From Naegleria gruberi (Eukaryota): 64,000 nt of DNA. Location of the stretch: the NCBI GenBank assembly GCA_000004985.1, contig GG738856.1; one strand, given 5' to 3'. Both the position numbers and the translations under genes were made by a program. Below are positions 1,056 to 64,000 of this stretch, one piece after another. Position 1 is the first letter of the stretch, and each line of letters begins with the position of its first letter. The notes under the pieces were generated by a model that was given only the letters and a program-made list of their open reading frames with translations, ran no database searches and was not told the DNA's origin.

Positions 1056-1491
1056 TTTGTTTTGGATTAGTTGAGTTGTTTTTTTTGAGTAAGAAGGCGA
1101 CTAGAGTCGCAATCATAAAGTAGGGTATGTCTTTTGAATCATTGTGTTTTTGTTGTTTAGTAGCCAAAAAGGCCCAATCGACTGAAATTGTTTGATGGCT
1201 TGGTGACATGTTCATATGAATTGTGATTCAACACTATTCTAAAACAAGCAAATGTTGGGTAAATAACAAGAATACATGCGGCTCATTTGTTGCTTGATTC
1301 CCTTCAATTTTGTCAATGCTGTTTAACCCGCTACTTTTTGGGTTCCCTGTCAAAATATGTCAAAACTCTTTTATGGAAAATCAGAGTTTCCAATAAAGCC
1401 GGTTAATGAAGCTGCGAAGTCGTTTGGATTGTCTGCGTGCACCCAGTGAGATGCATTCTTTAATTGTTTCTCAAGTTCAAACAAAGTACAA

Positions 1492-11668: not shown

Positions 11669-11740
11669 AGAAAAGAAGAAGAAACAACAGAGTGAAAATA
11701 TTGCTAGATATGAAGAAGGCTTTTTTTTTGATTGTCCGTT

Positions 11741-11753
11741 GTGCGCGCACGTG
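11741..11753. promoter_or_regulatory. GTGCGCGCAC palindrome overlapping CACGTG E-box in divergent intergenic region (hypothetical gene / lysyl-tRNA synthetase)
   Basis: Direct reading. About 75 bp upstream of the minus-strand gene ATG at 11668. Confidence 0.3.
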
Positions 11754-12139
11754 GGGTAAATTGATTTTCCTGCTTGGCTTGTGGTGAGAAGAAGGATGTT
11801 CCTCTTTTTTTAATTAATTCTTGTTGGGGGATGATATTTCAATTATTATTTGGTTTATTGTTTTTTCTGTTAATGAGACAATGGTTGCTGTAGTTCAAAT
11901 AATAAGATTTCCATTTTCTTGGTTTAGTCTCATTTTGATTTTGGATAAAGATGACAATCATTAAAAAGCTTTAAATTTCCCAATAGGAATAGCGTTCAAT
12001 CTGAAGGCGTGTAATATATCACTATCCGAAGCAAATAATCATAATATTACCAATAGTAAAGATGTAATAAATTTTCAATAAACAAAATTAAAGAAATTAA
12101 TGATTATATTAATTAGCGAACAGGTATTAATTTAAAAAA

Positions 12140-35500: not shown

Positions 35501-36574
35501 TTAATTGAGAGAAACTTGATAAACATCAAAGTGATGATTTAGCTTTGAATTCTCATGGACGCAGTATTCTTGATTTACCTTATTGATTAGTCCACCAAAA
35601 TTATTTCCACATTCATGTACAAAGTATATTCTTCTAATTCTAGAGTGTAAGAGAGCCATTGCACACATACAGCAAGGTTCATGTGAAATAAATAAATCCA
35701 ATCCTTTGCAGAGGTAGGGAATTTCTGTACTCGGTGTGTTAGGTGGTAGCTTCTCAATTGTCTCTATACAGTATTGGGCAATGACATCCACACCAACAAC
35801 AGCACAGTGCCTCAGTGAGCATTTGAATTTTCCCAAATTTGAAAGAGTACCTTCTGTTTCTGAATAGTAAGGAGAGAAAAATGAATTTTTAGATTCGTCT
35901 AGGAATAATTCATCATGAATACTAGATTTAACAATTGTCTTGGTTTGTGGATTGAAAAATAACCCAGAAACTCGCTTACTCTTTTCAAATGAATCAATTA
36001 CTAGTTTTGTACATGTTTCTACAGATTTCTCATCGTGACTATTTACATTTAGTTCTGCTTTTGGATCTAATTTTGCCAATTGAAGTTCAGTTTCATATAA
36101 ATTAACAGTTTTAAGAGGCCAATATTGAGTATTCCATTCCTTCCACTGATATTTCAATTTAGGTCCATATTTTGGAATTTTAAAAAGTTTCAAAATTTTT
36201 TCTGCTTGTTGATGATCCGAACATTCTAAAATTGTTTTAAAAACATGATTTTCTTTTGTAAGTAATTCATCATCCGAGCTTTGAAAAACATTAGAAATCC
36301 ACCTCTGTAAATTTGTATTTTCATCAGTATCATCATCAATATTCAACAATGGATACAAAACACAATAAGTATCACTTCCAATAGTTTTAATTCTTTTAAT
36401 AAAATCTATATCACGAGCCTCCAATGGAAAATTCTTATTCAAATATTGAATCAAGCCTGAAGTTTTTGATTTATTTTCCACTCTTATCCCGATAATATTA
36501 ATCAACTCCAAATCGGTAATCTTCGGCTTGGTGTAGATGTTTTTAATTGATAACTGTGATGATGAATTTTCCAT
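35501..36574 (-). CDS. CMP/dCMP-deaminase zinc-binding domain protein, tRNA adenosine deaminase subunit TAD3/ADAT3-like
   Basis: C-terminal HCAVV...PCCMC (H-x-V...PC-x-x-C, Glu-less variant typical of ADAT3) with a long N-terminal domain. True ATG is at 36574 (MENSSSQ). The ORF-track start at 36610 uses an alternative TTG. Confidence 0.5.
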   Translation of the reverse strand: MENSSSQLSIKNIYTKPKITDLELINIIGIRVENKSKTSGLIQYLNKNFPLEARDIDFIKRIKTIGSDTYCVLYPLLNIDDDTDENTNLQRWISNVFQSSDDELLTKENHVFKTILECSDHQQAEKILKLFKIPKYGPKLKYQWKEWNTQYWPLKTVNLYETELQLAKLDPKAELNVNSHDEKSVETCTKLVIDSFEKSKRVSGLFFNPQTKTIVKSSIHDELFLDESKNSFFSPYYSETEGTLSNLGKFKCSLRHCAVVGVDVIAQYCIETIEKLPPNTPSTEIPYLCKGLDLFISHEPCCMCAMALLHSRIRRIYFVHECGNNFGGLINKVNQEYCVHENSKLNHHFDVYQVSLN

Positions 36575-36582
36575 ATTTTTTT

Positions 36583-36599
36583 TTTTTTTTAAATGCAAT
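36583..36599. repeat. target-site duplication, left copy (TTTTTTTTAAATGCAAT)
   Basis: Identical 17-mer recurs at 38013..38029, immediately flanking the LINE fragment. Confidence 0.6.
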
Positions 36600-38012
36600 G
36601 GGCAAGACAATTAGTAGTTTTATCCATCTAGCAAGAGGAAATTCAATTTCCAATCCTCGCCTACAAACAATTGACTCAACAATAAGGGGTAACCTAAAAA
36701 GATCAATGAAGATCGATGCAAAGGTAAAACCATCCACAATGTATGCACAATTCGAAAGAAAAGGACTAGAAATTCCAAACCTCGAATACATAGCCAACTC
36801 AATCCTTTGCAATAACTTAATCAACAAATTCCACTCAAGTAACCCACTTGTCAGAGAAGCAGTACAGTACGGAATTAATAACTGTAACACGAACAAAACA
36901 AAACTACACAACATATTTGAAAAATTCCACTACATCCTAAAACAACACAAACTTACCACAACAATATGTAACACCAATCATCAACTTCTGGAAAAGGAAA
37001 AAGATGAACAATACTCCTACTCAGAATTCACAATATGGACTGATGGATCCAAATCAGAAAACAAAGTAGGATTCAGTGTAATCATTCAGAACAACGAATT
37101 TACAAAAGGATACAAATACAAGCTCCACTCATACCACTCAAACAACATGGCTGAATTATCAGCAATTACAACAGCACTACACATCATACCACCAAACAGC
37201 AATGCAAAGGTACTCACTGACAGTGAAATAGCAGTCAAAATAATTTACAACACAAATTACAAAGGTCAATTTAAGCAAATCAAAGATGAAATTACCAACC
37301 TCATCAGCACTAAAAAACTTCAAGCATCCATCGAATGGACAAAAGCTCATACAGGAATAACAGATGGAAATAACTACGCTGATAAGAAAGCCAAACAAGC
37401 CTCAAGAATAGGACATCGAATTGCACCCCAACATCTACTAACTCAAGGGCAACTAATTATCACCAATTCGAAAAAAGTTTGGAAAAGTAGAATCAAAGGA
37501 GTACTTAGTGAAAAGCTCTACAATCAAGGAACATCCGAACTCATCAACAGAACAAATCTCAATTACCTCAAAGAACATACCACCCCAACTCACAAATACT
37601 CAATCTGGAGGCTCATGATAAATGGACACTTAAGAAGCCTCATAGTAGACAACCCACAATGCCCAACATGTAACAAAAACCTTGACACAGAACACCTCTT
37701 CATAGAATGCCCAGAAATGAATTCAGCTAGAAACTGGATGATTGAAGAAATCAAAAAAAATACCAATCTCGAACCAGTACTAAGCACAGAGAGGACAGAA
37801 ATATTAACACCAAACTCATTCCAACTGAATATCTTTGGTATTCTGACAGAACCTATTCAAGGTATTATCAAAGAACAATGGCCCAAGATACAAGGAGGCC
37901 TCTCACTTTTTGGAGGAAGAGTACAAAAACAATACAACAAAATCTTAAAAATTCAATAAGACGTTCCAAATGGACGAACCCGTCGGGTTCATTCGATTAA
38001 TAAACGTTTAAA
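36600..38012 (+). mobile_element. 5'-truncated non-LTR (LINE-like) retrotransposon copy: ORF2 C-terminal part (RNase H + Cys-His motif) plus 3' UTR
   Basis: Uninterrupted 453-codon ORF ending at 37959 with RNase H motifs TIWTDGS, AELSAI, HTGITDGNNYADKKAK and C-terminal CPTCNKNLDTEHLFIECPE. 3' UTR contains hairpin GAACCCG-T-CGGGTTC and AATAAA. Flanked by identical 17-bp direct repeats. Confidence 0.65.
37976..37990 (+). other. perfect 7-bp stem hairpin in LINE 3' UTR (GAACCCG T CGGGTTC)
   Basis: Direct reading of the sequence. Lies 17 nt after the ORF stop and before AATAAA. Confidence 0.6.
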
Positions 38013-49311: not shown

Positions 49312-52300
49312 TTATTTATTTGCCTTCTTTTTCATTATCACTGATAATGGCATGTCATGTTTAAATAAGTGATTAATTAACATGGTAGAAATTTCTGCAA
49401 ATAAATCTTCGTTCATAGTAAAATCCAAAGTGTTCAATTTCATTAAATTTCCTTCCAATTTTGAAATGAATAAATCGTGATCTTGTTTGTGACCGGCTGC
49501 TCCTGGAATATTATTCTCTTGCATGTATTGTTCTTGTTTTGAGAAGAATTTTCTTGTCTTTTCCAAGAAATCACTCAATAAAATTTGTATCTGAATTGAA
49601 TGTTGATCAGCTACCCAAATATAGTATAATTTGTTAACTTGATAGAATAATTCTTTGTGATATTCATTCATTTCTGGGTCAAAATCCATCTTGGCATTCC
49701 ATTTAATGAATGGTTGATTCTTAATCATTTCATCAATCTCCTCCTGTGATGTTAATTTGTTCGTTGAGGATGAGCTTCTACTGTAACGTTTACCATCAGT
49801 TGTCTTTACAATGGATGCTCTTGTATTGGTTTGTTTGGAAGTTGAATAGGATGGGAATGCACTGGTGTGTCTTTTGGCTTTTTCTTCTAATGAAAGTTGA
49901 CTCGTGTCCTTCTTGAATTTAAATTTCATCTTTTGGAAAAATCCTAAACCTTGACTTTGAGATTTCAAACTCTTTAAGGTTTTATCTTCTTCCACTTTGA
50001 GAGAAATTCCTAGCTTCTTTGCTAATTGTTTGGCTGTTACTTTTTGATTATTTTTAATTCCAACACTACAATTGGCTGCTACTAGAATGGTAACAATTTC
50101 TTGATTTTGTTGATTGACTGCAATGTGAAGAGCAGTATCACCTGCATCATTTTGTGCATCAACATCAACTTCTCTTGCTCTTGCAAGTAGAAGAATTATA
50201 TCCTGATGTCCTTTCCTTGTTGCCAAATGAAGTGGACTATCACCATTCTTTTTATCCTTCTCATTTAAACATTCAACTATTGAATCTGTTCCTGACATGT
50301 AGTTAATTAACAATTTCAATGAATTAATATATCCAAAATTAGCACAATGATGAATAATGGTATTTCCTGCACCAGAGAGACGATTCACTATTTTAGAAAG
50401 TGTTGGCTTTCCAAATGCATCCTTAGGTGCTAAATTACCACTACCACTCAAACTTGATGATGATGAAGTTGCACTATCGAATTGATCAACAAATAACTTG
50501 TCATGCTTATTTTGCTCTTCAATTTCTAGGTATTTTGAATTTGTCAAGTGTTGTTGTTGAGTTTGATGATTTGGTGTTGAATTGGTTGGTGATGGACTCG
50601 AATTACTTGTTATATTAAATACAGATTCTTCTTCTATGGAAAGTAAATATCTACACAAATAATCAATTAAATGTGGATGTGGAGCAGCAGAATATAAACA
50701 ATGTTGATCTTCACGATTCATTCTCAAAATACTTGCACCCTTTTCCAATAGAAATTCAACCTTACTCAAATCACCCTCCTCACAACAAGTATGAAGACAT
50801 GTTTGACCTTTCTGTGTTTTAAAATTAACATCAGCACCAAACATGATTAAAGTTTTAGCAATATCTAAATATCCCTTTCTCAATGCCACACTCAGTGGTG
50901 TATTTTCAAAATTATCTTTCACATTCACTTTAGCACCACGCATCAATAAATAAACACAAGCACGAATACAATTATTGGCAACAGCATAAAAGAGTGGAGT
51001 TGAACCACCACCATCCTTCTTCTCTACCAAAGCTCTATATTCATCAATGAGAATACTAATAATTTTGAAACGATTCAAAGAGGCTGCCTTATGTAAAAGT
51101 GTCGTATTCGTTGCATCCTTATCAATATAATTTGAACTGATATTGAACACTTTGCCAGATTCTTCTCTTTCCTTCCTATCTTGTTCCAATCTATTTCTAA
51201 GTTCTTGTATGAAATTATGTTTAATATAATAATTCAATTCTTCTGTAATATCAATAAAATCAGTTCTAATTCCTTTTTGTCTTTCTAATTTAGTGGCTTC
51301 ATCCTCTTCCTCTTCTTCATTTTCTGATACTGTTACATTTGAATTTGAATTTGTTATTGTTGTTTTAGATAAAGTTGATGATTGAGAGTTGTTGGAATTA
51401 TCAACATCAATATTGGTGGATTTTTCAGAATGTTCAAATGTGGTTTCTGATAACCTGTTTGATCGTTTTTTATGGGAAATTATGAATTTGTTATCGGAAC
51501 ATTCTCTATAAATTGTTTTCTCTAAATTCATATAATCTTCTGTTGTTTTAAAATATTTCTTTCTCTTTCGTCTTTGTAAACCAGTGTTTGGATCAATACT
51601 TGGTGATTGTGGAGTTGAAGTAACTGAATCACTTATAGATAGTAATTGAATCATTATAGATGAAGGAACAGATGTTGTTCTATCCAAAGATGACAATTCA
51701 CTACCCACCACTTCATTAGAAATGTTATTCGAAATATTATTAGAAACACCTTGAGTTGTTGTAATAGATGGAATATCATCAAGTAAATCAAATAAACTAT
51801 TTTCTTGATTTTTAGATATTGTTGAAGATGAATGATTATTCAAATTAGTTGAATTATTCGAATTATTATTCGATGATGGTGATGAACGAATTAATTGTTG
51901 TTTAAAATTATTACTTGTTGATGATGGCCTCAGTGATGACATGTTAGAAAATGTTCTCATCAATGGACTTGTATCTTCTCCACCACCACCATTATTAGCA
52001 GCAACAGAAACAGCAGTAACAGTAGTACTACCATTACCTATAACCTCACCAGTTCTATCATCATCACCAGTATTAGTGATGGATGACGAAAAAGCCTTCA
52101 TTGACAAGCCTTTACAAGATGACAAAGATGATGCTAGCACCTCTTCTTCTTCTGAGGAGGATAATTGATTTAAATGATTGGAACAAGTTGTACTCGTTGA
52201 TGATGATAATAATTGTTTCTCATTCTTTGGAACAATAGAATCATGATTGATATTATTAGCAATAGCATCAGACTGTAGATGGCACTGCTGGCAAGTGTTA

Positions 52301-52356
52301 TGGTTGTTTGACATTTTTTTGGTTGAAGAATATAACGCAATTCTTGTCTGTGTCAT
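49312..52356 (-). CDS. large ankyrin-repeat protein (1014 aa) with N-terminal low-complexity region and C-terminal non-ANK domain
   Basis: At least 8 ANK repeats (TPLFYAVANNCIRACVYLLMRGAKVN, TPLSVALRKGYLDIAKTLIMFGADVN, SPLHLATRKGHQDIILLL). Confidence 0.7.
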   Translation of the reverse strand: MTQTRIALYSSTKKMSNNHNTCQQCHLQSDAIANNINHDSIVPKNEKQLLSSSTSTTCSNHLNQLSSSEEEEVLASSLSSCKGLSMKAFSSSITNTGDDDRTGEVIGNGSTTVTAVSVAANNGGGGEDTSPLMRTFSNMSSLRPSSTSNNFKQQLIRSSPSSNNNSNNSTNLNNHSSSTISKNQENSLFDLLDDIPSITTTQGVSNNISNNISNEVVGSELSSLDRTTSVPSSIMIQLLSISDSVTSTPQSPSIDPNTGLQRRKRKKYFKTTEDYMNLEKTIYRECSDNKFIISHKKRSNRLSETTFEHSEKSTNIDVDNSNNSQSSTLSKTTITNSNSNVTVSENEEEEEDEATKLERQKGIRTDFIDITEELNYYIKHNFIQELRNRLEQDRKEREESGKVFNISSNYIDKDATNTTLLHKAASLNRFKIISILIDEYRALVEKKDGGGSTPLFYAVANNCIRACVYLLMRGAKVNVKDNFENTPLSVALRKGYLDIAKTLIMFGADVNFKTQKGQTCLHTCCEEGDLSKVEFLLEKGASILRMNREDQHCLYSAAPHPHLIDYLCRYLLSIEEESVFNITSNSSPSPTNSTPNHQTQQQHLTNSKYLEIEEQNKHDKLFVDQFDSATSSSSSLSGSGNLAPKDAFGKPTLSKIVNRLSGAGNTIIHHCANFGYINSLKLLINYMSGTDSIVECLNEKDKKNGDSPLHLATRKGHQDIILLLARAREVDVDAQNDAGDTALHIAVNQQNQEIVTILVAANCSVGIKNNQKVTAKQLAKKLGISLKVEEDKTLKSLKSQSQGLGFFQKMKFKFKKDTSQLSLEEKAKRHTSAFPSYSTSKQTNTRASIVKTTDGKRYSRSSSSTNKLTSQEEIDEMIKNQPFIKWNAKMDFDPEMNEYHKELFYQVNKLYYIWVADQHSIQIQILLSDFLEKTRKFFSKQEQYMQENNIPGAAGHKQDHDLFISKLEGNLMKLNTLDFTMNEDLFAEISTMLINHLFKHDMPLSVIMKKKANK

Positions 52357-52820
52357 ACCGTGTATGGATAGTCACAAAATTGAATCGCACCTGCCTGATT
52401 TAATTTAACAACGAAATGAGAAATGGATGGCACAATTAATTGAGATGATTCTTAATTGGTGAACTCACATATTATATTGTGAATTCATTTGTTTTCATGT
52501 TATTTCGTTATAATTACAGAAAGTAATGGGGTTGTACTTTTGGTTGATGATGAGAAAATTTTAAATAAGGTTTACTAATTAAAAGAATCCAATAGGATTC
52601 AACAAAATAATGAAAAGTAAACAATAAGCTTCAAAATTATCATCTCTTTCAATACATACACTCAAACACTTTAAAGTCGTCGACTACTCTGTCCACACTT
52701 TCCCTAGTGATATCACTCTTCATTCAAGAAAACCTTAGTTTCTCAGTTCAGTTTATTCATATCTGAAACCTTTAGGCGGGTAAAAGGAAAATCTTCACTT
52801 CAAAACTCTGAAAAAACAAA

Positions 52821-53951
52821 ATGACACTCACAAATGCTGATACACTACCAATAGTAATGACATTTCTTGATGTAAAATCAGTGATATTATCATGTTCACT
52901 TGTATCTAGAGAGTGGAATCATTTAACAAGATTAAATTCCATATGGAAGTTAAAATATGAACAAATATTCATGGAGAGTGTATTTAATTGGACTAAACAT
53001 GTTACAAATTCTTCTAATGATGATGATGATTCCGATTCTGATTCTGATTCGAAAGATGAATCTTCTGATAATTCATCATCTTCAGAATCGGAAGGAAGAA
53101 AAAGAAAAAAAAGAAAGAAAATTAAAAAGTCAAAGAAACAAAAAACAAGAAAATCCAATCAAGAAGATTACTATTGGTTTAATTTATTTAAAAAATGTAT
53201 ATTACTATTTCCTATTTTAGATATTGAATATGAAAATGTTGAACTACTTGCCAATCAATTAGATTACAATGAAATTAAAAAAATTACAAATGTTCAACAA
53301 TTACATGAAATAATTTACCACTTGAAAGAAACTATTAGAAATCAAGAAAATGGTCAATCTCAACTCACTTCTGATTATCAATATAAATTTCACAACAGTA
53401 AGGCACTAACTCTAAACAAGGAAATGAAAGCTAATTTAATGCAATTAGCAACAATATTAACAGTTTTATATGATGGACAATCAATATTCTATTTTACAGA
53501 TAATGTTTTAATTAGAGTTAAAAAGGAAATGTGGCAATGGGCTCATGAAGATGAAATTGATTGTTTTGAATGTACTTTACCTGCTTTTTGCATGTTGGTT
53601 CTCTATCCTAAAGCTGAAGAAAATATTCCCTTAAAGAAGATGAAGAAAAAGTATCATTTAATGGTATCTCCATCTATAGAAAATCATAAAAGGGAAGAAG
53701 AATCAGACTCAGAATCAGACAATGATGATGAAAAAGAAGGAGGGAGAGTACTCAATACAACAAATTCATGTTTCTGGTTAGATATGATGGGATACTCTGA
53801 ACCTGAAGGAAAGAATGATATTTGTTTTTGTAATTACTTTGATTGGTGTCCAAATTTCATTTCCTCAGAAAATTCAACCAACAATTCTCCAACCATTAAT
53901 ACATCAATGAATACAAAGAAGAGAACTATTCAGATATCAAAGTATGAATAA
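52821..53951 (+). CDS. F-box protein with acidic/Lys-rich linker
   Basis: N-terminal LPIVMTFLDVKSVILSCSLVSREWNHLTRLNSIWK F-box consensus. Confidence 0.5.
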   Translation: MTLTNADTLPIVMTFLDVKSVILSCSLVSREWNHLTRLNSIWKLKYEQIFMESVFNWTKHVTNSSNDDDDSDSDSDSKDESSDNSSSSESEGRKRKKRKKIKKSKKQKTRKSNQEDYYWFNLFKKCILLFPILDIEYENVELLANQLDYNEIKKITNVQQLHEIIYHLKETIRNQENGQSQLTSDYQYKFHNSKALTLNKEMKANLMQLATILTVLYDGQSIFYFTDNVLIRVKKEMWQWAHEDEIDCFECTLPAFCMLVLYPKAEENIPLKKMKKKYHLMVSPSIENHKREEESDSESDNDDEKEGGRVLNTTNSCFWLDMMGYSEPEGKNDICFCNYFDWCPNFISSENSTNNSPTINTSMNTKKRTIQISKYE

Positions 53952-54010
53952 GATTTTTGTACAACAGAATAGGCAAACAGACTATCAGTCAATTGGAATA
54001 ATACCACCTG

Positions 54011-55516
54011 TTGGTAGTCCTAAAACTTGAAATTAACAAGTCAATCAAGAAATTAAACATATTTCAATCGGATTTGAAGATACTAAAAATTCTAAGTGAA
54101 ATGACAAGATTTAATTCCTCACTTGAACGTTTAATAAACATTATCAAGCCTAATTATTATTTGTTTACAAAAAAAATGATCAATAAGAAATCTCATCATA
54201 AAAAGCCTTTTGATCATCGTAATCATGATCATGATAATACAATAGATCATGTTCCGATGATGGTAGGTGAAAAATCACTACTTGAAATAGGTTCCGATTG
54301 TATTTTGGAAATATTTAAATATCATGTTGAAACATCTGATGATATTTTAGTATTATCACATACATGTTCAGATTTTAAACAATTAATTAATACAAATACG
54401 GAAATTTGGACTTGTAAAATTAAATCAATATTTAAAAGAAAGGCTTTACAATTTCAAAATTTCAAAGTTAATAGAGTTGATTTGTTAAATCAATTTTTAT
54501 TAAATAATTTAACAGATAATTATTATTTACTTCCAGAAAAGGAAGTTTATCAATTTTCTAAAAAAAATGGTGGAGAATTTATTAATATGATTACAAATAC
54601 AAATGATTTAATCAAGTATTTTAAATATGAAAAACAAGTTGAATCTGATTTTAATAATAGAAATTTCATTTATTCCAAATTAGGAAATCTATTTGAATGG
54701 ATTCAAAGAATTTTTATAATCTTATTTTGTATTTATATTTCATTCCAAGAATATTATGTGGTCATGAAAACAGCATTAGATTTAAATATATATAGTTGGG
54801 TTAAATATTCTGATTTAATTATTTATACTTCTCTAATTTTGGAATCTTTAATTATTTTTATAGATGTTTTTATTTTGTGCTATTTTAGTGAATTTATTTT
54901 AAATATTAAAAAATCCATTAAAAGAGCCTATTCAAAAATTACATACACGCGCAGATATAAAATTATAGTACTCATTCTAATTCTATCAATTGCATCATTA
55001 TTTATTAGAATTATGTTTTATTTTAATAATGATAGTGATGGTTCTCTTTTACAAGAACGTAGAAAATATTATAATGAATTGGATTTGGAAAATGCAAATA
55101 TTTTACAAAGATTTCAATTAGGTGTATTTAATGGTGAAGAAATATTTAGATCTTTAATTAACAATTTTAATTTATTACTTTCAATTCCATTGGCTTTTGG
55201 ATATTATGAAGCTTCTAAATTTTTAACGGAATTTAATACTTTATTTGTTTTTGGAGTGGGAATTTATTTACAATTATTTACTTTGATATTTTTTACTAAT
55301 ATTTTAACTCCTATTTTAGCATTTGTTATTGCTATATTAGGAGGATATTATTATAAGTATGATATTTCTAATTGGAAAAAAATATTATCAATTGCAACAT
55401 CACATTTATTTGCTTATTTGGGATTTTCATCATTTTATATATTTTTACCACATGTAATTTATTTTACTATTTGTGAGAATACTGGTCATGGAAGTTCAGA
55501 GGATATAAATTTTTAA
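54011..55516 (+). CDS. F-box-like domain fused to multi-pass transmembrane region
   Basis: LLEIGSDCILEIFKYHVETSDDILVLSHTCSDFKQLINTNTEIWTCKI, then at least 6 hydrophobic helices in the C-terminal 280 aa. Confidence 0.45.
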   Translation: MVVLKLEINKSIKKLNIFQSDLKILKILSEMTRFNSSLERLINIIKPNYYLFTKKMINKKSHHKKPFDHRNHDHDNTIDHVPMMVGEKSLLEIGSDCILEIFKYHVETSDDILVLSHTCSDFKQLINTNTEIWTCKIKSIFKRKALQFQNFKVNRVDLLNQFLLNNLTDNYYLLPEKEVYQFSKKNGGEFINMITNTNDLIKYFKYEKQVESDFNNRNFIYSKLGNLFEWIQRIFIILFCIYISFQEYYVVMKTALDLNIYSWVKYSDLIIYTSLILESLIIFIDVFILCYFSEFILNIKKSIKRAYSKITYTRRYKIIVLILILSIASLFIRIMFYFNNDSDGSLLQERRKYYNELDLENANILQRFQLGVFNGEEIFRSLINNFNLLLSIPLAFGYYEASKFLTEFNTLFVFGVGIYLQLFTLIFFTNILTPILAFVIAILGGYYYKYDISNWKKILSIATSHLFAYLGFSSFYIFLPHVIYFTICENTGHGSSEDINF

Positions 55517-56354
55517 TTTTATCGTTTCTGGATAGAAGAACTTTGATTGTGGTTGTAATAAGGCAAGTAGTCGTTTGGTAGAACTATTCGAATAAATTGA
55601 ATGGTTGATGAGTGAGGACTGTTACAAAACATGTTACTATCACAAGGATCCTTGACAGTATGTAATATTTCTCACTAACACATCTGATGCTTCAATAATT
55701 GTGAGCCACTTTTCATCCCAAATATTCTATTAAATTCATTATCATCCCAACAATTTGTTTCAAAAAAACTGTAGATCAAATGAGTAAAACCCATTTCATT
55801 GTATTTTGATATGGAGACTTTACAATGAAATCTATTCAAGAGACTCTTTTATTTCAGATATGATACTACTTACAAGTTGGAGATACGCTCAACTTGTATT
55901 GAAATAATTAGATTTATTAGCAATAATACCTTCAATTATTAGAAAGATTGACTTTTTCCTTTTTAGTATTGACACAATTCCGCTTGTCATTTTACAATGT
56001 GCACCAATCAGAGTGTTACATTTTTCAGTACAAAATATATTTAATATTATTATACAATCAGATACTTCACTCTGCTGAACCTAACTTTCGTTTCCTTTCA
56101 CACTGAATCGAACTAATGTTTAAATTCTAACATAAAAATCACCAATGTCACTACTATTTCAGCTTCAGTGGAAGATTCTACTTCAGTTGAAAATTGACGT
56201 CTTTATCGGCAATGGTTTTTTGAAAAGGGAAACTTTTTTCAAAGCCTAAAAAAAATCGCTTGACATTAGACTGAAACAATTTCAGTGATTTACAAGCAAT
56301 CTACCTCAACACCACTCTAATAACAGTGAACCAAACTAATTACTTTGAGAGTAA

Positions 56355-58449
56355 ATGTATTATAATAATATGATGGCAACTACAACATCAACTGAAGAAC
56401 ATGATATATTTCAATATCATTCTAATTTTCAAATTCTATCCAATGGAAGTAAATCAACAACAACAACTTCACCTAACAAACAACAACAACCTTTAAATTC
56501 TACCGATACTACTATTACTACTACTAACGATACATTATCATCTCTATCAACTGATAATATACCAATGGCTATTTCACCCTCCTTGTTATCGGTAGAAGAT
56601 TCTACAACAGTCTACAGTACAAGTTGTAATGATTCATCACTCATGATGGATCAACAATCTTCATCATCACTCGTTTCTTCATCCATTATAAACTCAACAA
56701 TATCTAATAATAATAATATTAATAATAATATTAATAACAATAACAATAATAACAATAATAATAATATTAACGGTTCAATTCCACTAATAACACTCAACCA
56801 AGAACAAAATGGTTCAGATCATGATGAATTAATTGATGTACATAGTTCATCATCCCCTAATCAATCACCTTCACATTCAACTGGAACACCGACAGATGAA
56901 GATTCGTTTACCTTCTCCAATTTAAATTGTTCTAATAGAAGTATTAATATTGCAATAACACCAACAACAAGTTTAAATGATTTAACTGTGGAATCATCAA
57001 GTGATTCATTATTATTATCAGATAATTATTCATTACAATATCCTCAATACTATTCTAATCAGACAGATCCTAAAAATTTACTTTTCCAATATTGTGTTGA
57101 GGGAAAGGAAGATTTATTTATTGAATTGTTAAAAGAACAAATTGAATCACCAAATCAAACATTGGGAAATTCATCACTTGATGCTAATAGAGTTTTAACA
57201 AGTCAATTCATTTATCATGATTTTGATAAATGTACTCTATTTCATTTATCAAGTAAATTTAATAGAGTCAATTCAATGGAGAAAATGTTGGAATATTTAC
57301 CTTCAATTTTAACATTTAAAGATTCAAAACAAGCTAATTGTTTATTTTATGCAGTTTCTAATAATTCAAAAGAAGCTTGTGCTCTAGTTTGTAATTATTA
57401 TTCAATGATAAATGGTTTATCAGATAAGAAATTTACAAATGAATTAGACATGTATGGTAATTGTTGTTTATATTTGGCAATGCAAAAATCTTTTTATGAA
57501 TTGGCTGATTTACTTTTATTATTTGGTGCTAATATTGATATTAGTTTTAAAACAGGTGAAACAATGTTACATAGAGCTATAACAGAGAGAAGATTAGATA
57601 TTGTTGAATATTTATCAAAGAAGGGTGCAAATTTATTGAAACAAAATCAAAATAATGTAAGTAGCTTTTTTTTTACCATTACTGGAAAGGTATTTAATCT
57701 TTTTGAACTATGTGTTGATTTTAAAATGTCAATTGATAATTGAACTATTTGTTGATAATTGATTCAATTGATTTATATCTTCTATAATATAATAGGAAAA
57801 TCCATTATTTAATGTATTTGTTCATCAGAAAAAGAAGGAAACCAATGTAAATACAAGTCAAGATAGTATCAATAGTACTGGTAGTAATGGTGGTAATAAC
57901 AAGACACCAACAAGTTTAGAATCACCAACTCATAGTGCACCACTCTTTTCATCAAATAATTCAAATTTCTGTAGAAATGGAGCTCTATTTTTACAAAATC
58001 TATTGAAAAGTAATGCATTTTCAAGTGAAATTATAATGAAAGGATTAAAACAAAAGAATTCTCATGGACGTACAATGTTTCAAGAATGTATTGTAAAAGG
58101 AGATTTACCAAGTTTTAAAGTACTAGTTGCCTATTTAACAACAAGAGAAAATTCAGAACAAACTCTTTCATGGTTTGTGAATGATGTTGAAAATCAAAAA
58201 CAAAGAACTTCACTTCATTTATCAGTTGCTTACAAACAATTTCACATGTGTAAGATTCTAGTTGATGCCATTCCAGGTATTGCTAAATTAGATACACTTG
58301 ATTCTGATGGTAAAACTGCAATGGATTTGGCAAGAGAAACAAATCAGGAAAATACCATTCAATTTTTCAATGAAATTCAACAATTACAGAAAGAAAAGAA
58401 AAGTTCTGGATTTGGTTTTAAAAAATTATTTAGAAGACTGAAAAAGTAA
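56355..58449 (+). CDS. ankyrin-repeat protein with Asn-rich N-terminus, 2 exons join(56355..57656,57796..58449)
   Basis: GTAAGT donor at 57657 and AATAG acceptor at 57795, phase 0. ANK repeats in both exons (TMLHRAITERRLDIVEYLSKKGANL, TSLHLSVAYKQFHMCKILV). Confidence 0.6.
56695..56790 (+). repeat. coding (AAT)n / (AAC)n microsatellite giving poly-Asn
   Basis: Inside the ankyrin gene's N-terminal exon. Similar tracts occur at 3768..3810, 59462..59590 and 62985..63075. Confidence 0.7.
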
Positions 58450-58611
58450 ATTGTACATATTTTGTAAACTTACTATTATTATTGAAATAATAATAATAAT
58501 GGATCTCATACAACAACAACAACAACAACATTATCAAATAATTTATCATCATCAACATCATCAACATCAACAACAATAACATTACAAAGTGCTCAACAAT
58601 TTTTCAAAAAT

Positions 58612-60390
58612 ATGAAAAAGGGTAAAATTGATATTGTAGAACAAATGTTAAAAGAGAATATAAATTTTCTAATGATACGAGATGTAGATGGAAGTACAGC
58701 ATTAATTAAAGCAGCATCTAAAAATTTAGTAAATTTTGTAGATTTATTTTGTAAATATAGTAGAGATAACAAACTTGGATTTAGTTGTTTAGATTTAACT
58801 AATAAGGATAGATATACAGCAATTAATATAGCAGTTAAAAAACAAAATATTCAAGTTGTAAAATTATTATTATCATATAATGCAGATATAACAAATACAC
58901 CAAATAAGGATGGTAATTTACCTATACATAGTGCGAGTAGACGTGGATTTACAGATGTTATTTCAATTTTAGTAAATTATGATATAAAACAATTAAATAT
59001 AATGAATCCATTAAATAATAGAACACCTATATTTATGGCAGCACAACATGGTCATTTAAAAACTGTTGAATGGTTTTTAGATCAAGATGGAATTGATTTA
59101 TCTATAAAAAGTTGTGATTACAAAAGACCAATACATTCAGCTGCATCACATGATAATTTAGATGTTTTAAAATTATTATTAGAAAAAGGACGAGAAAATA
59201 TTAATGTTATTACAACAAATGAAACTGATAAGGATAAAAGATATACTCCAATGCATTATTGTTGTAAAAAAGGTGCTTTAAAAACTGCTAAATATTTATT
59301 AGAAAGAGGTTCTCTATTAGGAATATTCATTTTAAATGCTCAACATGGTTATTTTGGTAAAAAAACACCTCTCTATTTAGCTGTTCATGGTAAAAAGGAT
59401 GAAATTGTTGAATTATTTTTAACTTATTATAAAATTATTAATGAAATGATTAATGAAATTGAAAAATCAGAAGAATTAATTAATATTAATATCAATACTA
59501 GTAATATCAATACTAGTAATAATAATACTAGTAATAATATCAATAATAATGATAGTAATAATAATAATAATGAATCTAAAAATTCAAATGAAAATGAATC
59601 AAGAATATTTAAAAAAATTGAAAAGTATAACAAATTTTCATTAGATTTAAGTTTAATTTATAAAACGTTAAATGAATATTTAAAAAAAGAAGATATTCAA
59701 GCAATAATATCAGATCCATCAAGTGAAAATTCAGGAGATTCAGATAATGATAATGCTGATGATTTCCAAAGAAACGAGGAAAAGAAATTATCAAGTGATT
59801 ATAAAAGAGTTACAAGATCAATTAAAAATGTTATACAAATTGCAACTTCAGAAGAGAATCAAGAATTAGTACATTTATCATTTTCAATTGTTCATTTTGA
59901 TATTGTAAAAGTGTATTTAGAATATTTCCCAGAATTATTGAATTGTAAATCAACTTCAAATGGAAATACATTAATTAATAAGGCAGCACATATTGGACAT
60001 TTAGAAATAATGAAATATTTAGTTTCAAAAGGAAGTAATATTTCAATACCAAATGATGTTGGTAATAGACCTATTCATAGAGCTGCGTATTGTGGACATT
60101 CTGAAATTGTTAAATTTCTCGTTGAGGATTGTGGAGAAAAGGTTGATGTATTTCAACATTCAACTCCAAAAACTAAACGGTTAGAAACATCTCTACATTT
60201 AGCTGCTAGAAAAGGTTGGATTGAATGTGTTAAAATTTTACTTTTAAATGGTTCTGATATTACACTTGCTACTAAGAGTGATAATCCAAATGGAAGAAGA
60301 GATGCACTTCAATTATCTAAGAGATATAATCAATTCCTTGTTTTTGATTTTCTTGAAAAGGTTTTCCAGAGAGTTACTCGATCTTATTAA
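58612..60390 (+). CDS. ankyrin-repeat protein (at least 10 ANK repeats) with Asn-rich insert
   Basis: Repeats such as NRPIHRAAYCGHSEIVKFLV and TSLHLAARKGWIECVKILLLNGSDI. Confidence 0.7.
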   Translation: MKKGKIDIVEQMLKENINFLMIRDVDGSTALIKAASKNLVNFVDLFCKYSRDNKLGFSCLDLTNKDRYTAINIAVKKQNIQVVKLLLSYNADITNTPNKDGNLPIHSASRRGFTDVISILVNYDIKQLNIMNPLNNRTPIFMAAQHGHLKTVEWFLDQDGIDLSIKSCDYKRPIHSAASHDNLDVLKLLLEKGRENINVITTNETDKDKRYTPMHYCCKKGALKTAKYLLERGSLLGIFILNAQHGYFGKKTPLYLAVHGKKDEIVELFLTYYKIINEMINEIEKSEELINININTSNINTSNNNTSNNINNNDSNNNNNESKNSNENESRIFKKIEKYNKFSLDLSLIYKTLNEYLKKEDIQAIISDPSSENSGDSDNDNADDFQRNEEKKLSSDYKRVTRSIKNVIQIATSEENQELVHLSFSIVHFDIVKVYLEYFPELLNCKSTSNGNTLINKAAHIGHLEIMKYLVSKGSNISIPNDVGNRPIHRAAYCGHSEIVKFLVEDCGEKVDVFQHSTPKTKRLETSLHLAARKGWIECVKILLLNGSDITLATKSDNPNGRRDALQLSKRYNQFLVFDFLEKVFQRVTRSY

Positions 60391-60634
60391 TATTGTCATC
60401 TTTCATTAATATTTGTTGAGATAATATTAGTGATATATTAGTGAATGATATATTGAATGATATTATTTTTAAAACTAAATTAACGTAATATTTTAACTGA
60501 AATCAAATGAAATAATACAAATAATAATACTATTTGTAATGGTATTATTAAAAAATTCAATAATTTGATTAATGATGTAAAAAAAGAAATGATATATTAT
60601 TAATAATAACCATTATAATTGTACAAATAAAATT

Positions 60635-61129
60635 TTAATTCTTAATCTTGTTCATTGCTTGATATTTTTGAATATCAAACCAAACCTTAAATAAATCACG
60701 TGTACCTAAAGCAAAAACAGAATTTGCTCTCAAATATAAATATGGTGATCCACTCAATTGAACAAGACATGGATAGAATGTATTTTCAAATATTGGTTTA
60801 CAAGGATCATTTTCAGGTGATTCTGACATGGCTTCCGATGGTGATTTTCCGTCTTTCTTTTCATTTAAACATTCTTTATATTTTCCTAATTGTGGTCCAC
60901 AAGGAGTATGTGGGGCATGAAGAAAACAATAAGAACACAAATACTTGTCTTCTTTCTGTATTAAATCTTCAGCAGTAACTAAAGGATATATTCTTCCGTT
61001 AACATCAAATTTATTCTTTAACACTTCTGGTCTAAATTGTGCAAGTGTCTTCAAGGCTTGTTGTCTTCTTTCCTCTTCCAATTTCCTTTCTTCCTCAGCA
61101 GCTGATAATGATTTGTTTGATATTGGCAT
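60635..61129 (-). CDS. hypothetical small Cys-containing protein (164 aa)
   Basis: ORF with coiled-coil-like N-terminus and a CSYCFLHAPHTPC...C...C segment. No family recognised. Confidence 0.35.
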   Translation of the reverse strand: MPISNKSLSAAEEERKLEEERRQQALKTLAQFRPEVLKNKFDVNGRIYPLVTAEDLIQKEDKYLCSYCFLHAPHTPCGPQLGKYKECLNEKKDGKSPSEAMSESPENDPCKPIFENTFYPCLVQLSGSPYLYLRANSVFALGTRDLFKVWFDIQKYQAMNKIKN

Positions 61130-61269
61130 TTTTTTAAATGTTATTTATTTATAAAAAAGCAATCAATTTCTATTGAATAGAAAACAAAGCCTTTTTTTTC
61201 ATCGTCTGTCTGTTACTATTGGATGATCATTATTTTGAGGAGCAGTAGTAGAAGATAATAATAATAACA

Positions 61270-64000
61270 ATGGATTTTGAATCATCACAACATTTAAATA
61301 TTCATTCTTCGGAAGAGGATTTATCATTGATCAGTGAATCAAGTGGTAATAATAATAATAATAACAATATCAGCAGCAACAGTAGTAGTAGTAGTGGTAC
61401 TATTAGTAATATTAGTAGTACATCAGATATTATTGGAAGTATTACTTCATCAAAAACAACTGATAACGAGGTTTTTGAAATTAGAGATTTCTCAACACTT
61501 TCATCATGGGAAAAGTATGTTATGATCAATTATCATCATCAATAATTTAATAATCATCATATTTAAATAATAATATTATAGATTAATAGATAAATTTGAA
61601 CAATTAATATTAGCATGGTTTAATAGATTTTCCAATTTTCAATTTACACCCACTGAAACATTCTTCTATAAGAGTCATATCATTCAATTTAATGGAACTA
61701 AATATTTATTTTCATATTATAATTTTAATCAATCATCTTTATCAGAAGAAGAACATGATCATCAAATAGAAAAGGATTTTCTTCATAGATCTCATCATTT
61801 AACTAGATGGTTTGGAGTTAAAGAATTTTTCATCATTTCTTTATATAACAATAATAATAATAACAAGCCTTCATCTTTATCACCATTTCATTCTTATCAT
61901 CATTCTAATAATAATAATAATTCATCCAATAATAATTCTAATAATTCATCTCATAATAATTCAAATAACATTTCAATTCAATCATCAACAAGTTTATCAT
62001 CTGCATTATCAGTTTCATTATCAAATTTAAATAAGAATGAAATATCATATTTTATATTATTAAATAATGAATGTTTAAATTATAATGGAAGATTAAATTC
62101 TAAAAATAATCAAGTTACTAAATATAAAAGTGAATCTTTATATGAAAAACAATTAAATTCTTCATATATAACATCATCTTTAATGAAATTAAGTGGAATG
62201 ATTGATTTATTTTGTATAAATTTAGGTAAACATATTAGAATTACAAATGAATTAACTATTAAATCTAGATATACATTTATATTACCATATTTAAATAGTA
62301 AAGAATGGTTAAAAATTAAAGATGATTTTAATTTTACAAAAAGTGAAAGAAATTTATTATTTACAATTGGTACAAAACAAGATCCAATTAAAAATTTTCA
62401 CTTTTCATGTATTTTTAATTCTATAAATATTAATGAACCAAATATAGATAATTTAAATATTAAAAATGCACATTTATGGGAATTAAAATTTAATCAATTA
62501 AAATTAAATGAATTTGAATTATCATCAAAATTAAAATTATTTATAAATAATATTATTTTAAATAATGAAAATGATAATACTTCCAATAATGGAAATAATT
62601 TATATATAAATGAAATAATTTATGATATATTTGAAACATTATCAGATGAAACATTTCAAATTAAATCAAAGTTATTAAATGAAAAACAAGAAATTAAATC
62701 ATGTCAACCTAATAGTTTATTAAGAAGATTTTGTGATCACATTTTAAGAATTAAATCAAAACAAGATTTAAAATTATTATGGAAATTATTTATTAAAGTT
62801 TTATTTAAATATTGGGAAGAATCAAATATAAATGATTTAATTAATGAATTTCCATTAAATATTTCATTCATTCCTTTTACAAATCAAAATGTTAATTGGT
62901 CAACTTGTTTAATTGAACAAAAAATTGACATGTTAAATATTTGTTGTTTAAAACAAATTGAAATTTTAAAAAATAATTTTAATTTAAATAATAATAATAA
63001 TAATAATAATAATACAAATAATACAAATGATAAGAATACTGAAAATAATAATATTAATATTAATAATAATACTGATAATAATAATGATAATATAAATGAA
63101 AAAGAATTTAATAATAAAAAAGATGAACAAGTTGAAGAAGAAGAAGAATGGAAAGATTCAGGCTTTGAAATATTATCAGATCATGAAAGTGTAGATTTAG
63201 ATGAAGAATATTTTGAAATTGAAAATGATGAAAATTTAGAATTAAAAGAAAATATAATTAAAATTATTGAAATTTCACCTGGTAAGGAAATTAAAATTCC
63301 AAAAACACAAAATCCACCACAAAATACAGAAGATGTTATTGAGGAGGAACGTGAAATTTTATCAAATATGATTTCATCAGATCAGAGAATTAGATTTCAA
63401 TGTGAAGGTTTAATTTCTGATATGCAAGCTTTTAAAGTATGTTATTTAATATTTTACAATAATATATTTAATAATACTTTACAATACTTTACAATAATAT
63501 ATTTAATAATATATTTAATAATAGTTTGTTAATCCTGGATGTGAATTTTCTGATTTTTTATTATGGTATTCACCTAAAGATGTTAAAGATGAAAATTTAA
63601 GTTCAAGAATGAAAATGAATGAAAATATTTGGAAGAAATTTTGGGAAGAATCAAAGCCTTTACCAATTTCAAAACAAAAACAAATTTTTGATCACAAATT
63701 ACAAGCAGAAAAAATTATACATCAAATTGAAACTATGGATTTTGATATTATTTTACAACAGTATGTAATAATATATTAATAATTTACAATAATATTATTT
63801 AATATTATATAATATTTAAAATATAGATTAATGATATGTACATTAACAGGACATTATTACATGTTAAAAGAATGGTGGATTGATTTAATTATGGATAGTA
63901 CAGATATATTTAGTAATGAATTTAAACAAGTTGATAAAAAATTAGATTTAAATTTACCTTTAATTAGAATTGTAGAAAGTAAATTTTTAAAAACAAAAGA
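61270..64000 (+). CDS. RAB3GAP1: Rab3 GTPase-activating protein catalytic subunit (RAB3GAP1) homologue, partial (3' end beyond window), exons join(61270..61514,61582..63436,63525..63760,63827..>64000)
   Basis: NEVFEIRDFSTLSSWEK|LIDKFEQLILAW matches SEVFEITDFTTASEWERFISKVEEVLNDW. Also HHLTRWFGVKEFFIIS, LNICCLKQIE and RIRFQCEGLISDMQAFK|FVNPGCEFSDFLLWYSPKDV match conserved Rab3GAP catalytic-subunit blocks. GTATGT donors, ATAG acceptors, consistent phases. Confidence 0.8.

What the first reader, a model, noticed from the sequence alone, without database searches (positions are those of the whole stretch)
54011..55516. F-box-like domain fused to a polytopic membrane domain
The N-terminal segment (LLEIGSDCILEIFKYHVETSDDILVLSHTCSDFKQLINTNTEIWTCKI) has F-box spacing. 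The C-terminal 280 aa contain at least six strongly hydrophobic helices. Together with the F-box gene at 52821 and the Galpha-F-box gene, this gives three F-box genes in 35 kb. It suggests lineage-specific diversification of SCF adaptors, here apparently targeting or residing in membranes.
Basis: inference. Interest (0 to 1): 0.5.

Follow-up and report, generated by a model that had tools for sequence, protein, structure and literature searches.

The report
Membrane-embedded F-box-like protein of Naegleria
This is a real gene of the amoeba Naegleria gruberi, apparently missing from its public protein set, that joins a probable F-box (the handle that plugs a protein into the SCF ubiquitin ligase) to a many-pass membrane domain of unknown family; that combination has not been characterised, but so far it rests on sequence evidence alone.

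Summary
The ORF is real. It is open for 501 codons in 21.5% GC DNA (chance about 3e-22), and the other five frames carry 35-70 stops. The window is Naegleria gruberi NEG-M. The true CDS is most likely 54176..55516 (446 aa, single exon). An exhaustive HMMER search of 1.84 billion representatives found one homologue, N. lovaniensis XP_044545463.1 (E=3e-88, 37-39% identity, full length, single exon). It found no N. gruberi entry, so the gene appears unannotated. The F-box call is moderately supported. Pfam F-box-like scores 16.5-18.2 bits in both orthologues in the same register, below the 24.3-bit cutoff. The only other hit in the library is a bona fide F-box-like domain. A two-sequence profile scores 24-26 bits on each of that protein's three F-box-like repeats. 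This block is the most conserved part of the protein. The canonical Leu-Pro is Ile-Gly. The C-terminal half has 5-7 TM-length hydrophobic segments conserved in both species (hydropathy r=0.81), with invariant Glu/Asp in TM2, and matches no known family. The split-gene alternative is refuted. I found no sign that the window's F-box genes arose by local duplication. Skp1 binding is untested, and both structure predictions failed. I rate it a new variant of a known kind, of moderate interest.

The parts
54176..55516 (+). Most likely complete CDS (446 aa plus stop), single exon; Naegleria-specific F-box-like polytopic membrane protein
   Evidence: ORF. The start is supported by the aligned Met of the N. 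lovaniensis orthologue. The orthologue is called as a single exon of 455 aa.
54011..54175 (+). In-frame open extension upstream of the real start; probably 5' UTR or promoter, not coding
   Evidence: It starts at a mechanical TTG. It has no counterpart in the orthologue, whose Met1 aligns with 54176.
54176..54274 (+). Basic, His/Lys-rich N-terminal tail (aa 1-33), poorly conserved (24% identity)
54275..54421 (+). F-box-like block (aa 34-82: SLLEIGSDCILEIFKYHVETSDDILVLSHTCSDFKQLINTNTEIWTCKI); the most conserved segment (53% identity; pN 0.30 vs pS 0.71)
   Evidence: Pfam PF12937 16.7-18.2 bits in both orthologues, same register. Hits to the F-box-like repeats of P0002. hhalign. Conservation.
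54422..54685 (+). Conserved cytosolic linker (aa 83-170) with invariant motifs QFSKKNGG and IYSKLG; no known domain
   Evidence: no Pfam or NCBIfam hit
54695..54763 (+). Candidate TM1 (aa 174-196), marginal hydrophobicity, starts with invariant FEWIQR
54812..54886 (+). TM2 (aa 213-237) with invariant intramembrane Glu223 and Asp230
54887..54955 (+). Basic loop (aa 238-260; 7 Lys/Arg and 1 acidic residue), predicted cytosolic by the positive-inside rule
54956..55024 (+). TM3 (aa 261-283), the most hydrophobic segment, with invariant Arg278
55025..55234 (+). Long acidic loop (aa 284-353) with invariant FNGEE-FR and IPLA motifs; contains a weakly hydrophobic helix (aa 327-345) that could be a seventh TM or a re-entrant segment
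55235..55351 (+). TM4-TM5 hairpin (aa 354-392)
55382..55471 (+). Last hydrophobic segment or segments (aa 403-432)
52821..53951 (+). Adjacent upstream gene NAEGRDRAFT_64992 (XP_002679708.1), a soluble F-box protein; context only, not a paralogue of the target
   Evidence: PF00646 20.8 bits; exact match to the N. gruberi protein; no similarity to the target outside the motif

Best explanation
The locus encodes a 446-aa integral membrane protein specific to Naegleria. Its cytosolic N-terminal region carries a divergent F-box, followed by a conserved linker and a 5-7-helix membrane domain of a previously undescribed family.

The most likely mechanism is that the F-box docks Skp1, and through it Cul1-Rbx1, at an intracellular or plasma membrane. 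The membrane domain would then act as the substrate-recognition module, selecting membrane-embedded partners through its conserved polar intramembrane residues (Glu223/Asp230 in TM2, Arg178, Arg278). Cytosolic lysines of those partners would be ubiquitinated. In short, it would be a membrane-integral SCF substrate receptor.

Shown here: the gene is real, under purifying selection and a single unit; the N-terminal block resembles F-box domains at profile level; the C-terminal half is polytopic and conserved. Inferred: the N-in topology (positive-inside rule, no signal peptide), Skp1 binding, SCF assembly, and substrate recognition within the bilayer.
For: Gene reality:
- The ORF is 501 codons open at 21.5% GC, P about 3e-22, and the other frames have 35-70 stops.
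- There is a full-length orthologue in N. lovaniensis (E=3e-88; BLASTP 1e-103, 37% identity over 459 columns), called as a single exon.
- pN 0.386 is below pS 0.607 overall, and 0.303 against 0.713 in the F-box block.

F-box:
- PF12937 scores 16.5-18.2 bits, E=0.002-0.007, in both orthologues at profile positions 8-42.
- The only other protein recovered from 1.84 billion representatives is P0002 (E=6.8e-4). Pfam calls P0002 F-box-like at 57.9 bits with 3 repeats.
- A two-sequence HMM of the block scores 24-26 bits on each of those three repeats. It also ranks the window's two Pfam-supported F-box ORFs first and second of 58 other ORFs, in register.
- hhalign gives 96% probability, and P=0.0022 against the window's own two F-boxes alone.
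- A reverse HMM built from five bona fide F-boxes ranks the target as the best non-self ORF.
- The block is the most conserved part of the protein, at 53% identity against 38% overall.
- UniRef names the orthologue 'F-box domain-containing protein'.

Membrane domain:
- Hydropathy peaks exceed shuffles in both species. Smoothed profiles correlate at r=0.81, and hydropathy at non-identical columns correlates at r=0.44.
- The loop after TM2 has 7 K/R, consistent with a cytosolic N-terminus.
- Invariant E223, D230, R178 and R278 lie in or at TM helices.

Precedent: Arabidopsis CFB is an F-box protein with a functional membrane anchor. It binds ASK1 through its F-box (PMC5853388).
Against: - Both Pfam F-box models stay below their gathering scores (16.7-18.2 vs 24.3; 12.8-14.9 vs 20.5).
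- The Leu-Pro that opens helix 1 of canonical F-boxes is Ile-Gly in both species. From my own knowledge, that dipeptide is commonly mutated to abolish Skp1 binding.
- No F-box protein of the PDB is reached by the family profile, even at E<=10.
- Both AlphaFold2 runs gave pLDDT of about 36, so there is no structural confirmation.
- Only two family members exist, so profile statistics are thin.
- Nothing here shows transcription, membrane insertion, Skp1 binding or any substrate.
Confidence: 0.5

Rival explanations
1. It is an orphan polytopic membrane protein, for example a transporter, channel or scaffold-like protein. Its N-terminal helical region only resembles an F-box and does not bind Skp1. 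Under this reading the conserved block serves another role, such as regulation, oligomerisation or binding of a different partner.
For: - Pfam scores are below threshold.
- The LP dipeptide is replaced by IG in both orthologues.
- There is no PDB F-box hit and no confident structure.
- Invariant charged residues inside TM helices (E223, D230, R278) are typical of transporters and channels. This last point is from my own knowledge.
Against: - Independent profile tests all point to F-box, and in the correct register.
- The block is the best-conserved part of the protein and has the lowest pN.
- No transporter or channel family matches the membrane domain in Pfam, NCBIfam or PDB sequences.
- There is no internal 3+3 repeat.
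Confidence: 0.3
2. It is a Skp1-binding membrane protein that works without cullin. It would tether or regulate Skp1 at a membrane for trafficking or organelle dynamics rather than for substrate ubiquitination. Yeast Rcy1 is described as working this way (own knowledge, not checked here).
For: The F-box evidence is the same as for the best explanation. The membrane setting also fits. From my own knowledge, some F-box proteins act in Skp1 complexes that lack Cul1.
Against: Nothing in the sequence distinguishes this from the SCF reading. There is no homology to Rcy1 or any other characterised protein.
Confidence: 0.12
3. The two halves belong to different genes, or the ORF is a non-functional remnant or an artefact of AT-rich composition that produces Ile/Leu/Phe-rich 'helices' by chance.
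For: - The gene is extremely AT-rich (GC 21.5%, GC3 0.11), which enriches for F/I/L/Y/N/K codons.
- The protein is absent from the N. gruberi set in the searched collections.
- No expression data were available.
Against: - The ORF is uninterrupted in both species with full-length colinear similarity, and the junction region is well conserved.
- The ORF length is essentially impossible by chance.
- Hydrophobic clustering exceeds composition-matched shuffles. It is also reproduced in the 34% GC orthologue.
- pN is below pS.
Confidence: 0.03

Closest known systems
Naegleria lovaniensis C9374_008344 (XP_044545463.1 / KAG2378201.1; UniRef A0AA88GKM1, auto-named 'F-box domain-containing protein')
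   Same: It is the orthologue. It is full-length and colinear at 37-39% identity. It has the same F-box-like block, linker motifs, hydropathy profile and single-exon structure.
   Different: It is uncharacterised. Its genomic neighbours are different (RGS, GST, histidine kinase). Its GC is higher (34% vs 21.5%), and its N- and C-terminal tails are not conserved.
Canonical soluble F-box proteins / SCF substrate receptors (Pfam PF00646, PF12937), e.g. the neighbouring NAEGRDRAFT_64992 and the Galpha-F-box gene in this window
   Same: It has an N-terminal motif of about 45 aa with the F-box hydrophobic pattern (..IF..., DxL, (C/S)xx(W/F), LI, xW). Similarity is detectable at profile level.
   Different: It scores below the Pfam cutoffs, and LP is replaced by IG. 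The usual soluble substrate-binding domain (LRR, WD40, kelch and so on) is replaced by a polytopic membrane domain.
Arabidopsis CFB (AT3G44326) group: F-box proteins with a C-terminal transmembrane helix
   Same: The layout is the same: an N-terminal F-box, a region with no known domain, then a membrane anchor. For CFB the F-box binds ASK1, and the TM segment is required for membrane association and for the overexpression phenotype (PMC5853388).
   Different: There is no sequence homology, since the exhaustive search found nothing outside Naegleria. CFB has one predicted TM helix at the extreme C-terminus, whereas this protein has 5-7 helices spanning about 260 aa with conserved intramembrane charges.
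[quoted passage not shown]
   Same: This is a functional analogy only: a ubiquitin-ligase module on the cytosolic face joined to a multi-pass membrane domain that can select membrane substrates.
   Different: The ligase chemistry and the module differ (RING versus an F-box adaptor that must recruit Skp1-Cul1-Rbx1). There is no homology.

Membership tests
F-box domain (Pfam PF00646 / PF12937) | Score at or above the curated Pfam gathering threshold | tested here: not met
   PF12937 scores 16.7 bits (full ORF) and 18.2 bits (N-terminal 175 aa) against 24.3. PF00646 scores 12.8 against 20.5. The orthologue scores 16.5/17.9 and 14.9.
F-box domain (Pfam PF00646 / PF12937) | Profile-level similarity to bona fide F-box domains in the correct register | tested here: met
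   The only non-orthologue hit in 1.84 billion proteins is the F-box-like region of P0002, which Pfam scores at 57.9 bits. The two-sequence HMM scores 24-26 bits on each of its 3 repeats. hhalign gives 96% probability, and P=0.0022 against the window's own F-boxes. The reverse HMM ranks the target as best non-self ORF.
F-box domain (Pfam PF00646 / PF12937) | Hallmark residues, including the Leu-Pro at the start of helix 1 | tested here: inconclusive
   IF, D(I/L)L, (C/S)S, (F/W), LI and (I/L)W are present and conserved, but LP is IG in both species. The consensus used for this comparison is from my own knowledge of the family.
F-box domain (Pfam PF00646 / PF12937) | Three-helix fold | tested here: inconclusive
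   AlphaFold2 places helices at aa 35-50, 54-60 and 65-79, but pLDDT is about 30-36 in both runs, so the models are unusable and no fold search was run.
SCF substrate receptor | Binds Skp1 through the F-box and assembles with Cul1/Rbx1 | not testable with these tools
   No Skp1 sequence could be submitted for co-folding, and no experiment was possible.
Integral polytopic membrane protein | Several TM-length hydrophobic segments, beyond what composition gives, conserved in orthologues | tested here: met
   There are 5-7 segments. Shuffle tests give p=0.013 here and 0 of 2000 in the orthologue, and the hydropathy profiles correlate at r=0.81.
Integral polytopic membrane protein | Experimentally or algorithmically established topology (N-terminus cytosolic) | tested here: inconclusive
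   Only the positive-inside rule was applied by hand. The loop at aa 238-260 has 7 K/R, and the 6- and 7-TM models could not be separated. No dedicated predictor was available.
Arabidopsis CFB-type membrane-anchored F-box proteins | Sequence homology to CFB / AT2G27310 / AT2G36090 and a single C-terminal TM helix | tested here: not met
   There are no plant hits in the exhaustive search, and this protein has multiple TM helices. The CFB architecture is taken from PMC5853388.
Any described membrane-protein family (Pfam, NCBIfam, PDB sequences) | Significant profile match of the C-terminal 270 aa | tested here: not met
   The best Pfam hit in the region is O_anti_polymase at E=2.4. There is nothing for the orthologue, nothing in NCBIfam and only FliG at E=0.75 in the PDB. 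There is no internal repeat.

The most novel reading that the evidence does not exclude
This is the founding member of a class of cullin-RING substrate receptors that are themselves multi-pass membrane proteins. The F-box would recruit Skp1-Cul1 to the bilayer, and the transmembrane bundle would read out substrates inside the membrane through its conserved Glu/Asp/Arg residues. That would give SCF ligases a direct, RING-independent route to membrane-protein turnover. It is found so far only in some Naegleria species and not in the annotated proteome of the pathogen N. fowleri.
Probability: 0.25. Interest if true: 0.6.

Novelty: new variant of a known kind. Interest (0 to 1): 0.4.

Why it matters
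Ubiquitin ligases known to be embedded in membranes are essentially all RING-type. SCF ligases reach membrane substrates through soluble, lipid-anchored or single-helix receptors. The only membrane-anchored example that my literature searches turned up is Arabidopsis CFB, and a full-text search for 'F-box domain' with 'polytopic' found no described case. An F-box receptor whose substrate-binding module is a multi-pass membrane domain would therefore be a new architecture for cullin-RING ligases.

There are also practical points. The gene appears to be missing from the N. gruberi protein set, so it needs a gene model. The family is present in N. gruberi and N. lovaniensis but was not found among N. 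fowleri proteins. That is a small but concrete difference between the pathogen and its closest non-pathogenic relative.

The limits are real. There are only two sequences, the domain call is sub-threshold, and there are no functional data.

Tried and rejected
- Word-indexed protein searches. The single sequence found nothing. The two-sequence profile recovered only the N. lovaniensis protein.
- Exact look-ups of the target with four alternative starts. None is in the collection, and the gene-position index does not hold this genome.
- Two metagenome scans, one by automatic peptide patterns and one by a back-translated YSKLGxxFEWIQR pattern. Neither found a relative.
- AlphaFold2 on the full protein and on the N-terminal 147 aa, each with the two-sequence alignment. 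Mean pLDDT was 36.0 and 36.2, so I did not run fold searches, because the matches would be meaningless.
- PDB sequence search with the family profile at E<=10. It gave only FliG at E=0.75, which I rejected as chance.
- NCBIfam scan: nothing.
- Test for an internal duplication of the membrane domain (TM1-3 vs TM4-6). hhalign probability was 0.1%, so this is rejected.
- Paralogues in the window or near the orthologue. tblastn found none.
- Tandem-duplication origin with the adjacent F-box gene. I found no similarity beyond a weak motif-level match.
- Synteny with N. lovaniensis: none within 10 kb.
- TMEM183 as a possible animal precedent, a recollection of my own. The literature search gave only gene-list mentions, so I dropped it.
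- The third PF00646 hit seen in the whole-window scan. I traced it to ORF 9611-11809(-) after two wrong candidates.

Full report
**What is there.** On the + strand the window has one long open frame. It runs stop-to-stop over 54002..55513, with a mechanical TTG start at 54011 and the stop at 55514-55516. The region is 21.5% GC. At that composition a stop codon is expected about every 11 codons, so 501 open codons have a chance probability of about 3e-22. The other five frames of the same interval contain 35-70 stops each. This is therefore a maintained coding sequence. The first ATG in a typical A-rich context is at 54176 (aaaaaaaATG) and gives 446 aa.

**Whose genome.** Three neighbouring ORFs are exact matches to Naegleria gruberi proteins on a 602,266-bp scaffold:
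- 52821-53951 is XP_002679708.1 / NAEGRDRAFT_64992.
- 29727-31400(-) is XP_002679838.1.
- 60638-61129(-) is XP_002679844.1.

The acetyl-CoA hydrolase exon at 47.7-49.1 kb falls in the same 90% cluster as XP_002679707.1. It is 87% identical to the N. lovaniensis protein and 74% to Willaertia. The window is N. gruberi NEG-M.

**Homologues.** The word-indexed search of 5.8 billion clusters found nothing. The exhaustive HMMER search of 1.84 billion representatives found exactly two proteins.
- P0001 (E=3e-88, 39% identity, query 30-441 vs 32-446) is N. lovaniensis XP_044545463.1 / C9374_008344, which UniRef auto-names 'F-box domain-containing protein'.
- P0002 (E=6.8e-4) matches only query aa 50-84.

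BLASTP aligns the orthologue from Met1 to the last TM segment (1e-103, 37% identity), which fixes the start at 54176. In N. lovaniensis the gene is a single exon of 455 codons among unrelated neighbours (RGS, GST, histidine kinase, VWA). A profile of the pair recovers nothing more, and two metagenome scans were empty. N. fowleri and Willaertia proteomes are present in the collections, yet neither yields a homologue.

No near-identical N. gruberi entry exists under any of four start choices or in the exhaustive search, although the immediate neighbours are present. I infer that the gene is missing from the public N. gruberi protein set. UniProt accessions appear to follow scaffold position. D2V814 is the gene at 52.8 kb and D2V816 the gene at 60.6 kb, which leaves a single accession for the interval holding both this ORF and a large ankyrin gene. 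This is inference, and I could not read the annotation itself.

**One gene or two.** It is one gene. The frame is continuous in two species that share under 40% identity. The junction between the halves is among the best-conserved parts, with QFSKKNGG, IYSKLG and FEWIQR invariant. Nei-Gojobori counts give pN 0.386 against pS 0.607 overall, with synonymous sites near saturation. The values are 0.303 against 0.713 in the F-box-like block, 0.36 against 0.575 in the linker and 0.39 against 0.606 in the membrane half. All parts are under purifying selection, strongest at the N-terminal block.

**Is it an F-box.** By the curated criterion it is not. PF12937 scores 16.7 bits on the ORF, 18.2 on the N-terminal 175 aa and 16.5/17.9 on the orthologue, against a cutoff of 24.3. 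PF00646 scores 12.8/14.9 against 20.5. Several independent observations still point the same way.
- Both orthologues hit the same model positions (8-42 of 47).
- The only non-orthologous protein found in the exhaustive search is matched through a segment that Pfam calls F-box-like (57.9 bits, three repeats).
- An HMM built from the two orthologous blocks scores 25.1, 26.1 and 24.0 bits on those three repeats.
- Among 58 other window ORFs, the same HMM ranks the two Pfam-supported F-box ORFs first and second, in register. Taking the window's three other F-box-like ORFs as the possible targets, I compute the chance of this as (3/58)(2/57), about 0.002.
- hhalign gives 96% probability against a reference set that includes P0002. 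It gives P=0.0022 against the window's own two F-boxes alone.
- An HMM of five bona fide F-boxes ranks the target as the best non-self ORF (11.3 bits).
- The block is the most conserved part of the protein, at 53% identity against 38% overall.

Against the F-box reading:
- The LP dipeptide that opens canonical F-boxes is IG in both species.
- No PDB F-box is reached by the family profile.
- Both AlphaFold2 attempts failed (pLDDT 36). The helices at aa 35-50, 54-60 and 65-79 are only suggestive.

My verdict is that this is a divergent F-box-like domain. That is probable, not proven, and Skp1 binding is untested.

**The membrane half.**
- Kyte-Doolittle analysis gives five non-overlapping 19-aa windows at or above 1.6.
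- Together with a Hessa-type scale (values recalled from the literature), there are 6-7 candidate helices: aa 174-196 (marginal), 213-237, 261-283, 327-345 (weak), 354-372, 374-392 and 403-432.
- The gene's AT-richness could in principle create Ile/Leu/Phe runs by chance, so I tested this. Residue shuffles give a mean of 2.0 such windows (p=0.013) here, and 1.25 against 6 observed (0 of 2000) in the 34%-GC orthologue.
- The two smoothed hydropathy profiles correlate at r=0.81. Hydropathy at the 260 non-identical columns still correlates at r=0.44.
- The loop after TM2 carries 7 Lys/Arg and 1 acidic residue. With no signal peptide and a 170-aa N-terminal domain, the F-box-like region should face the cytosol (positive-inside rule; inference).
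- Invariant Glu223 and Asp230 lie one face apart in TM2, Arg178 opens TM1 and Arg278 lies in TM3.
- The domain matches no family in Pfam, NCBIfam or PDB sequences, and it has no internal repeat.

**Context.** The upstream neighbour, 225 bp away on the same strand, is a soluble F-box protein (PF00646 20.8 bits). The Galpha-F-box ORF at 20.3 kb is a strong F-box (38.5 bits). ORF 9611-11809(-) is a fourth borderline case (19.6 bits). So F-box genes are frequent here. However, the target shares nothing with its neighbour beyond the motif, and the orthologue has no F-box neighbour. I therefore found no evidence of local tandem diversification. Whether 3-4 in 64 kb is enrichment cannot be judged without the genome-wide count. 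Ankyrin-repeat genes flank the pair on both sides.

**Mechanism.**
- Best reading (0.5): a membrane-integral F-box protein. Its cytosolic F-box recruits Skp1-Cul1-Rbx1, and its transmembrane bundle, with conserved intramembrane charges, selects membrane partners for ubiquitination.
- Rival 1 (0.3): an orphan membrane protein with an F-box look-alike.
- Rival 2 (0.12): a Skp1 tether that works without cullin.
- Rival 3 (0.03): an artefact, a pseudogene or two separate genes.

**Comparison with the known.** The nearest characterised precedent found is Arabidopsis CFB. It has an F-box plus one C-terminal TM helix, binds ASK1 in an F-box-dependent way and associates with membranes in a TM-dependent way (PMC5853388). 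CFB is not homologous to this protein and is not polytopic. Full-text searches for 'transmembrane F-box protein', and for 'F-box domain' with 'polytopic', found no described polytopic case. Membrane-embedded E3s reviewed in the literature are RING-type (PMC4021871). I class this as a new variant of a known kind, of moderate interest. The evidence is limited to two sequences, a sub-threshold domain call and no functional data.

Noticed in passing
window 52000-64000 versus 1-50000: There is a sharp compositional shift. Genes at 12-49 kb have GC3 of 0.27-0.35. The target has GC3 of 0.11, and the genes at 56-64 kb have 0.06-0.13. Bulk GC falls to 17.5% at 62-64 kb. This looks like an isochore-like AT-rich domain or a position effect on this scaffold. 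It may explain why the gene caller missed the target.
   Followed up: partly
window 20289-20939 (-) and 21237-21626 (-): This is a G-protein alpha subunit fused to a strong F-box. F-box-like scores 38.5 bits and F-box 33.3 bits, directly after the G-alpha C-terminal part, and the G-alpha N-terminal part lies in the next ORF piece upstream. It is an unusual domain combination in its own right.
   Followed up: partly
window 9611-11809 (-): This is a fourth F-box candidate in the window. PF00646 scores 19.6 bits (cutoff 20.5) at aa 157-192 of a 733-aa open frame with no other Pfam domain.
   Followed up: no
window 36547-37956 (+) and 35504-36610 (-): This ORF has RNase H (63 bits), RVT_3 and zf-RVT matches, which suggests a retroelement-derived gene or fragment. 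Its 5' end overlaps, on the opposite strand, an ORF with a cytidine/deoxycytidylate deaminase zinc-binding motif.
   Followed up: no
window 3-1100 (-): This ORF runs off the window start and carries a fungal-type Zn(2)-Cys(6) binuclear cluster domain (34.5 bits). That family is best known from fungi.
   Followed up: no
window 49312-52356 (-), 56355-57743, 57796-58446, 58486-60390 (+): Large ankyrin-repeat genes flank the two adjacent F-box genes on both sides. The three downstream ORF pieces probably form one multi-exon ankyrin gene.
   Followed up: partly
window 61574-63529 (+): This ORF has a Rab3 GTPase-activating protein catalytic-subunit match (39.8 bits). Its 62183-63529 portion is coded at only 17% GC, with GC3 of 0.056.
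   Followed up: no
L001 (N. lovaniensis PYSW02000034.1, 59868-81235): The orthologue's neighbourhood shares no gene with the N. gruberi window within 10 kb. It contains RGS, a hybrid histidine kinase, GST and a receptor-type guanylate cyclase. The gene has therefore moved, or the regions have been thoroughly rearranged, since the two species split.
   Followed up: partly
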